From Octopus sinensis (Eukaryota): 64,000 nucleotides of DNA. The DNA is taken from the NCBI RefSeq assembly GCF_006345805.1, contig NC_042997.1, positions 15,996,001 through 16,060,000 on the forward strand, written 5' to 3'. The position numbers and the translations under genes were made by a program. The notes beneath the pieces were generated by a model that made no database searches, was not told the DNA's origin, and worked only from the letters and a program-made list of their open reading frames with translations. Below, one piece after another: positions 47,708 to 47,744 of the stretch (position 1 is its first letter; each line of letters opens with the position of its first letter).

Positions 47708-47744
47708 TTAGTACCGGTTTCAGTCTTTCAACTTTTTCAACTAA
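47708..47744 (-). ncRNA. Minimal type I hammerhead motif, U3-A8 core variant
   Basis: Minus strand: TTAG TTGAAAA AGTT gaaa GACT GAA ACCGGT A CTAA. Confidence 0.68.

What the first reader, a model, noticed from the sequence alone, without database searches (positions are those of the whole stretch)
47708..47744. U3-A8 compensatory core variant hammerhead with perfect geometry
Seen (minus strand): TTAG|TTGAAAA|AGTT-GAAA-GACT|GAA|ACCGGT|A|CTAA. This gives a 4-bp stem I, a GAAA-capped stem II, a palindromic stem III and a GUA triplet. Established: positions 3 and 8 form a tertiary Watson-Crick pair, and U3-A8 is a known tolerated natural variant. Inference: the paired change from C-G to U-A points to selection on catalytic structure. 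A CUGANGA text search would miss this motif.
Basis: partly seen in the sequence, partly recalled or inferred. Interest (0 to 1): 0.75.

Follow-up and report, generated by a model that had tools for sequence, protein, structure and literature searches.

The report
U3-A8 hammerhead in Penelope retrotransposon remnant
This motif is the predicted self-cutting RNA at the tail of a broken Penelope-type jumping gene; its swapped core base pair is shared by thousands of related copies in this genome and is already described in print, so it is real but ordinary.

Summary
The 37-base motif is present as described (minus strand, 47744-47708) and is not chance. It is a type I minimal hammerhead in a 342-bp, 5'-truncated, internally deleted 3' end of a Penelope-like element (PLE). 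Longer copies lead upstream into an RT + GIY-YIG frame. U3-A8 is the inherited state. With the 3' half fixed, the genome gives 5,216 U3-A8, 96 C3-A8, 83 U3-G8 and 11 C3-G8 matches (reversed-pattern controls 11, 15, 9, 11). Sister families keep the core while stems I and II change with pairing preserved, so selection on the fold among parent elements is well supported. The 'perfect geometry' is overstated. The GAAA tetraloop is a one-base deletion in this copy, and its U-G closing pair is a likely CpG decay. Stem III cannot close in a monomer, so cutting would need a dimer, and this copy has no partner in the window. Cleavage is untested. U3-A8 in PLE hammerheads is published (PMC4209133; natural U3-A8 also PMC3088659). 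This scan already noted U3-A8 hammerheads on other DNA of this genome. New member of a known kind.

The parts
47708..47744 (-). Type I minimal hammerhead motif with U3-A8 core
47741..47744 (-). Stem I, 5' strand (pairs with 47708-47711)
   Evidence: the third pair is U-A here and C-G in sister families
47734..47740 (-). Core positions 3-9; U3 = 47740, A8 = 47735
47722..47733 (-). Stem-loop II (A10.1-U11.1 first pair). In this copy the closing pair is U.G and the loop 4 nt; the family has mostly C-G and 5 nt
47719..47721 (-). G12 A13 A14
47713..47718 (-). Six-base palindrome; predicted to form stem III only between two copies
   Evidence: dimer model from PMC4209133
47711..47712 (-). Predicted cleavage site after A17 (GUA triplet); untested
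   Evidence: sequence and standard hammerhead numbering
47623..47805 (-). Distal 3' end (pseudo-LTR part) of the PLE, ending in a TA-rich tail
   Evidence: 89% to a longer copy over 184 bp
47809..47964 (-). Proximal 3' untranslated part of the same PLE, including the TTC run where about 170-210 bp are deleted; the 5' truncation point is near 47964
   Evidence: TTC run 47808-47852

Best explanation
The motif is the hammerhead of the 3' repeat of a Penelope-like retrotransposon, left in a dead 342-bp fragment; in the parent element two tandem copies likely pair through the palindrome into a double hammerhead that would cut the transcript slowly after GUA, with U3-A8 standing in for C3-G8. Shown: repeat membership, the link to an RT + GIY-YIG frame, U3-A8 as the inherited state, tandem repeats flanking the frame in a sister family, and stem covariation between families. 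Inferred: dimer folding, cleavage, and a role in releasing the element's RNA from read-through transcripts. This lone, decayed copy is most likely a passenger.
For: Genome search: 40 of 40 scored candidates (of 1,400) at 88-100% identity. Longer copies extend upstream with graded 5' truncations into RT and GIY-YIG coding sequence. A younger sister family is 64-76% identical in protein to these pieces and scores GIY-YIG (25.4 bits, cut-off 22.6) and RVT_1 (28.9 bits, just under the 29.6 cut-off). It has two same-strand hammerheads 3,041 bp apart around the frame (L110) and inverted copies (L111-L114). 3-8 counts: 5,216 / 96 / 83 / 11; about 1 double mutant is expected from independence, and 1 in-register family copy is seen among the 11. 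Between families the first pair of stem II is A-U or G-C, the third pair of stem I is U-A or C-G, three more distant groups have unrelated stems I of 5-7 bp, and loop II and position 7 vary. The double-hammerhead fold is -11.3 kcal/mol against -0.8 for the monomer fold. Literature: PMC4209133, PMC3088659.
Against: No cleavage data. The double-hammerhead fold lies 4.3 kcal/mol above the best predicted dimer for this copy, and 2.2-8.6 above across the nine copies tested. 22 of 72 copies have an A.A mismatch at 10.1-11.1. Published metazoan PLE hammerheads cleave weakly even as dimers. In one PLE tested in vitro, cleavage needed the protein, was not required for insertion, and no reads ended at the cut site (PMC11167929). 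My patterns fixed the 3' half, so its constancy across families is partly by construction.
Confidence: 0.85

Rival explanations
1. The fold is kept as a structural signal (dimerisation, or binding by the element's protein during reverse transcription), and cutting is negligible or incidental.
For: Hammerhead cleavage was dispensable for insertion in vitro in a Poseidon PLE. Activity of minimal PLE hammerheads is low. An A.A mismatch next to the core is frequent in this family.
Against: Unpaired catalytic positions (4, 5, 6, 9, 12-14, 17) persist between families whose stems have been replaced, though partly fixed by my patterns. 3-8 stays complementary in the U-A and A-U groups.
Confidence: 0.1
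2. This particular copy was kept by the host as a working ribozyme at this locus.
For: All core positions are intact here, whereas many copies have core changes.
Against: It has decayed like its siblings (likely CpG change in stem II, loop deletion, internal deletion). It is the only family hammerhead in the 64-kb window. No host exon was found nearby: of 75 frames scanned (from 185 candidates), hits were retroelement domains plus a PHD finger and one sub-threshold hit more than 25 kb away.
Confidence: 0.03
3. The copy belongs to a protein-free retrozyme that borrows PLE enzymes.
For: It is short and non-coding. U3-A8 retrozymes were noted elsewhere in this genome by earlier, unchecked notes.
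Against: Copies of this family run directly into the RT/GIY-YIG frame with graded truncations, and no fixed-length tandem unit was seen.
Confidence: 0.02

Closest known systems
Minimal type I hammerheads of metazoan PLE pseudo-LTRs, including the U3-A8 variant of Schistosoma mansoni Cercyon elements (Cervera and De la Pena 2014, PMC4209133; parts 1-2 of 4 read)
   Same: Type I topology, short stem I, palindromic positions 15.2-16.2 and loop 3, dimer requirement, U3-A8 core (about 1,300 hits there), mostly single motifs in truncated elements.
   Different: Stem II is 4 bp with no bulged base after A9 and starts with A-U (G-C in the young sister family) rather than 7-8 bp with a bulge. Different host and PLE lineage. 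With this stem III, U3-A8 is the rule here and C3-G8 is at background.
Natural U3-A8 core variants (Perreault et al. 2011, PMC3088659; passages read)
   Same: Same covariation at the 3-8 tertiary pair; the paper states such variants were shown active in vitro, citing Przybilski and Hammann 2007 (not held, not read).
   Different: This one lacks a closable stem III and sits in a retrotransposon.
C-terminal-endonuclease PLEs with a CX2-5CxxC linker: Neptune or Nematis clades (Craig et al. 2021, PMC8557442; passages read)
   Same: RT followed by a CX4CxxC motif and GIY-YIG, hammerhead near the 3' end, tandem and inverted copies, TA/CA microsatellite ends.
   Different: Neptune versus Nematis was not resolved (no reference proteins, no tree). 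It is not a Naiad, whose endonuclease is N-terminal.

Membership tests
Hammerhead ribozyme (type I, minimal) | Core N3 U4 G5 A6 N7 N8 A9 / G12 A13 A14 / A15.1-U16.1 / H17 with complementary 3-8 | tested here: met
Hammerhead ribozyme (type I, minimal) | Stems I and II paired, with covariation support | tested here: met
   4 + 4 bp here; two-sided changes between families, read from a few representatives, no formal covariation statistic
Hammerhead ribozyme (type I, minimal) | Stem III formed between two copies through a palindrome | tested here: inconclusive
   Palindrome present; dimer fold favoured over the monomer fold but 4.3 kcal/mol above the best dimer; no partner in the window
Hammerhead ribozyme (type I, minimal) | Site-specific self-cleavage | not testable with these tools
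   Only contigs were available
Rfam hammerhead families | Score at or above gathering threshold | tested here: not met
   0 matches in the window
Penelope-like element, EN+ | RT followed by C-terminal GIY-YIG endonuclease | tested here: met
   In longer copies and the sister family; absent from the truncated window copy
Penelope-like element, EN+ | Hammerhead in pseudo-LTRs; tandem and inverted arrangements | tested here: met
   L110 and L115 tandem, L111-L114 inverted; inverted pairs in this family, L006 and L018
Neptune or Nematis clade | CX2-5CxxC linker upstream of GIY-YIG | tested here: met
   definition
Neptune or Nematis clade | Placement in an RT tree | not tested
   no reference proteins fetched
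Non-LTR retrozyme | Non-coding fixed-length unit in tandem, no own frame | tested here: not met
   family runs into an RT/GIY-YIG frame

The most novel reading that the evidence does not exclude
A whole active lineage of PLEs in this genome has abandoned C3-G8 for weaker U-A or A-U pairs (and tolerates an A.A mismatch at the base of stem II), giving deliberately attenuated ribozymes that switch on only as tandem dimers chaperoned by the element's own protein; the family series is a natural mutational panel for testing what PLE hammerheads are for.
Probability: 0.25. Interest if true: 0.45.

Novelty: new member of a known kind. Interest (0 to 1): 0.2.

Why it matters
The single copy matters little. 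The family series is of modest use: over 5,000 U3-A8 matches that a CUGANGA search or Rfam misses, a young sister family with tandem repeats suited to a cleavage assay, and natural stem and 3-8 variants that bear on the open question of whether PLE hammerheads need to cut.

Tried and rejected
Rfam at gathering score: no match. A C3-G8 parent family with the same 3' half: not found; 11 matches against 11 in the control, of which 1 is an in-register family copy whose inverted partner is U3-A8, 3 are family copies matched out of register, and 7 look unrelated. Other stem III sequences were not searched, so C3-G8 families elsewhere in the genome are not excluded. Reading A10.1 as a bulge: rejected because the young sister family has G-C at that pair. 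Naiad assignment: considered, rejected on domain order. The PLE fragment on the plus strand at 49.3-51.0 kb as the same insertion: rejected, 26% protein identity. Expression: no RNA holder listed; 4 of 24 runs laid, all contigs, which cannot show RNA ends. Lunse et al. (PLE hammerheads cleave as dimers) and Przybilski and Hammann 2007 are not held; I saw only their titles in reference lists. Searches for a description in octopus ('octopus' + 'hammerhead ribozyme' + 'Penelope'; 'hammerhead' + 'U3-A8'; 'hammerhead' + 'C3-G8' + 'compensatory') returned only PMC8557442 and PMC4209133; their supplements were not opened and may list these families. The reversed-pattern control (531) exceeds the count (121) and is uninformative.

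Full report
Observation. It reads as a type I hammerhead: 4-bp stem I, U3-U4-G5-A6-A7-A8-A9, 4-bp stem II with a GAAA loop, G12-A13-A14, a six-base palindrome and a GUA triplet, with the predicted cut between 47712 and 47711. A tight pattern was matched by 0 of 100 shuffles. A general descriptor finds only this site in the window, and hit 8.5% of 200 shuffles in loose form and 0 of 200 in strict form. Rfam does not detect it.

What carries it. The surrounding 151 bases match a dispersed repeat in this 2.7-Gb genome: 40 of 40 scored candidates, out of 1,400, at 88-100% identity. Against longer copies, the window holds 47964-47809 and 47805-47623, with about 170-210 bp missing at the TTC run. 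Longer copies continue upstream with graded 5' truncations, and that sequence translates, with breaks, into reverse-transcriptase motifs, a CX4CxxC linker and a GIY-YIG domain ending shortly before the region kept in the window. Pfam support on these decayed pieces was weak (1 of 3 hit, E 0.02). A younger sister family, 64-76% identical in protein, gave GIY-YIG above cut-off and RVT_1 just below it (2 of 3 pieces hit). It shows two same-strand hammerheads 3,041 bp apart around the frame (L110), a 602-bp tandem (L115) and inverted copies. These are the hallmarks of a C-terminal-endonuclease Penelope-like element; the linker points to Neptune or Nematis (PMC8557442, passages). The window copy is a dead 3' remnant and the only family hammerhead in the window.

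Is U3-A8 the family state? Yes. With places 3 and 8 free, 17 of 18 exact matches are U3-A8 and 1 is C3-A8. A one-mismatch pattern gave 135 matches; of the 100 listed, 85 are U-A, 10 C-A, 2 U-G, 2 U-U, 1 A-A and 0 C-G (hand count). In my alignment 59 of 72 other copies are U-A and 1 is C-G (one partial row dropped, sample chosen by similarity, some loci may recur). Genome-wide, with the 3' half fixed and stem II free, the counts are U3-A8 5,216, C3-A8 96, U3-G8 83 and C3-G8 11, with reversed-pattern controls of 11, 15, 9 and 11. These are matches, not exact copy numbers. Independence predicts about 1 double mutant; 1 of the 11 is an in-register family copy, and its inverted partner is U3-A8. 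So copies decay neutrally from a U3-A8 ancestor. The switch from C-G is older than these families and cannot be seen here.

Selection on the fold. The evidence lies between families. Three more distant groups have unrelated stems I of 5-7 bp, other stems II and other letters at position 7, around the same U3-A8 core; one of them (L116) is linked to a related PLE frame. An older group has A3-U8 with the same 3' half (36 of the 100 listed begin with the same seven letters, hand count); its link to a PLE frame was not shown (0 of 6 loci). Caveat: my patterns fixed the 3' half and part of the core.

68 of 72 copies have a 5-nt loop II and 48 of 72 close it with C-G; contigs of public runs show the same two differences. 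The GAAA tetraloop is therefore a deletion in this copy, and the U.G pair a likely CpG decay shared with 21 of 72 copies. The palindrome leaves a 2-nt loop, so stem III cannot close in one molecule. The monomer fold is -0.8 kcal/mol and the double hammerhead -11.3, still 4.3 above the best predicted dimer. 22 of 72 copies carry A.A at 10.1-11.1.

Mechanism. Most likely, read-through RNA of a tandem element brings two hammerheads together, the palindromes form a shared stem III, stems I swap partners, and the RNA is cut slowly after GUA, defining an end of the element's RNA. U3-A8 keeps the tertiary pair that positions nucleotide 8 (established hammerhead structure; recalled, and stated in PMC3088659). 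Folding as a dimer, cutting and its purpose are inferred. Against a needed role: weak activity of such motifs (PMC4209133) and dispensability for insertion in vitro in another PLE, where cleavage required the protein (PMC11167929, passages). No expression or cut-site evidence could be had.

Known or new. Cervera and De la Pena 2014 describe minimal PLE hammerheads and report about 1,300 U3-A8 motifs in Schistosoma (parts 1-2 of 4 read). Perreault et al. 2011 report natural U3-A8 covariation (passages). A review restates the dimer model (PMC6765202, passages). For bioRxiv 2026.07.22.740005 I saw the abstract and outline only. Earlier notes of this scan describe U3-A8 and other 3-8 variants on other DNA of this genome; none is near this place. 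The host looks like a cephalopod from its SINEs (recalled, not tested). Verdict: a real, ordinary member of a known kind; interest 0.2.

Noticed in passing
G000, (e.g. L124:1501-1537): An old repeat group with an A3-U8 core, a longer stem II and the same 3' half; 36 of 100 listed matches begin alike. No PLE frame found in the 6 loci fetched.
   Followed up: partly
L110-L115 (G000 C1): Young, very uniform U3-A8 PLE family with near-complete but frameshifted frames and tandem or inverted ends; the best material for a cleavage assay.
   Followed up: partly
family alignment, window place 47722: 22 of 72 copies have A.A instead of A-U at the first pair of stem II, and 14 of 72 have G at 11.3 (U.G); both look like subfamily states.
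   Followed up: partly
window 49340-51000 (+): A second, unrelated decayed PLE (RT and GIY-YIG-like pieces, 26% identity to the sister family's RT); no hammerhead found by my descriptor.
   Followed up: partly
window 1-3359: Tandem array of an 87-bp unit, about 39 copies at 94-97% match.
   Followed up: no
window 17183-19517 (+), 25023-27285 (-), 58324-59424 (+): Remnants of non-LTR retrotransposons (endonuclease, RVT_1, zf-RVT, a PHD finger); the 25-27 kb one ends in AAT tails.
   Followed up: no
window 47437 downwards (-), and about 48915-49050 (+): Copies of an abundant tRNA-like SINE (identification recalled; ARAGORN found no tRNA).
   Followed up: no
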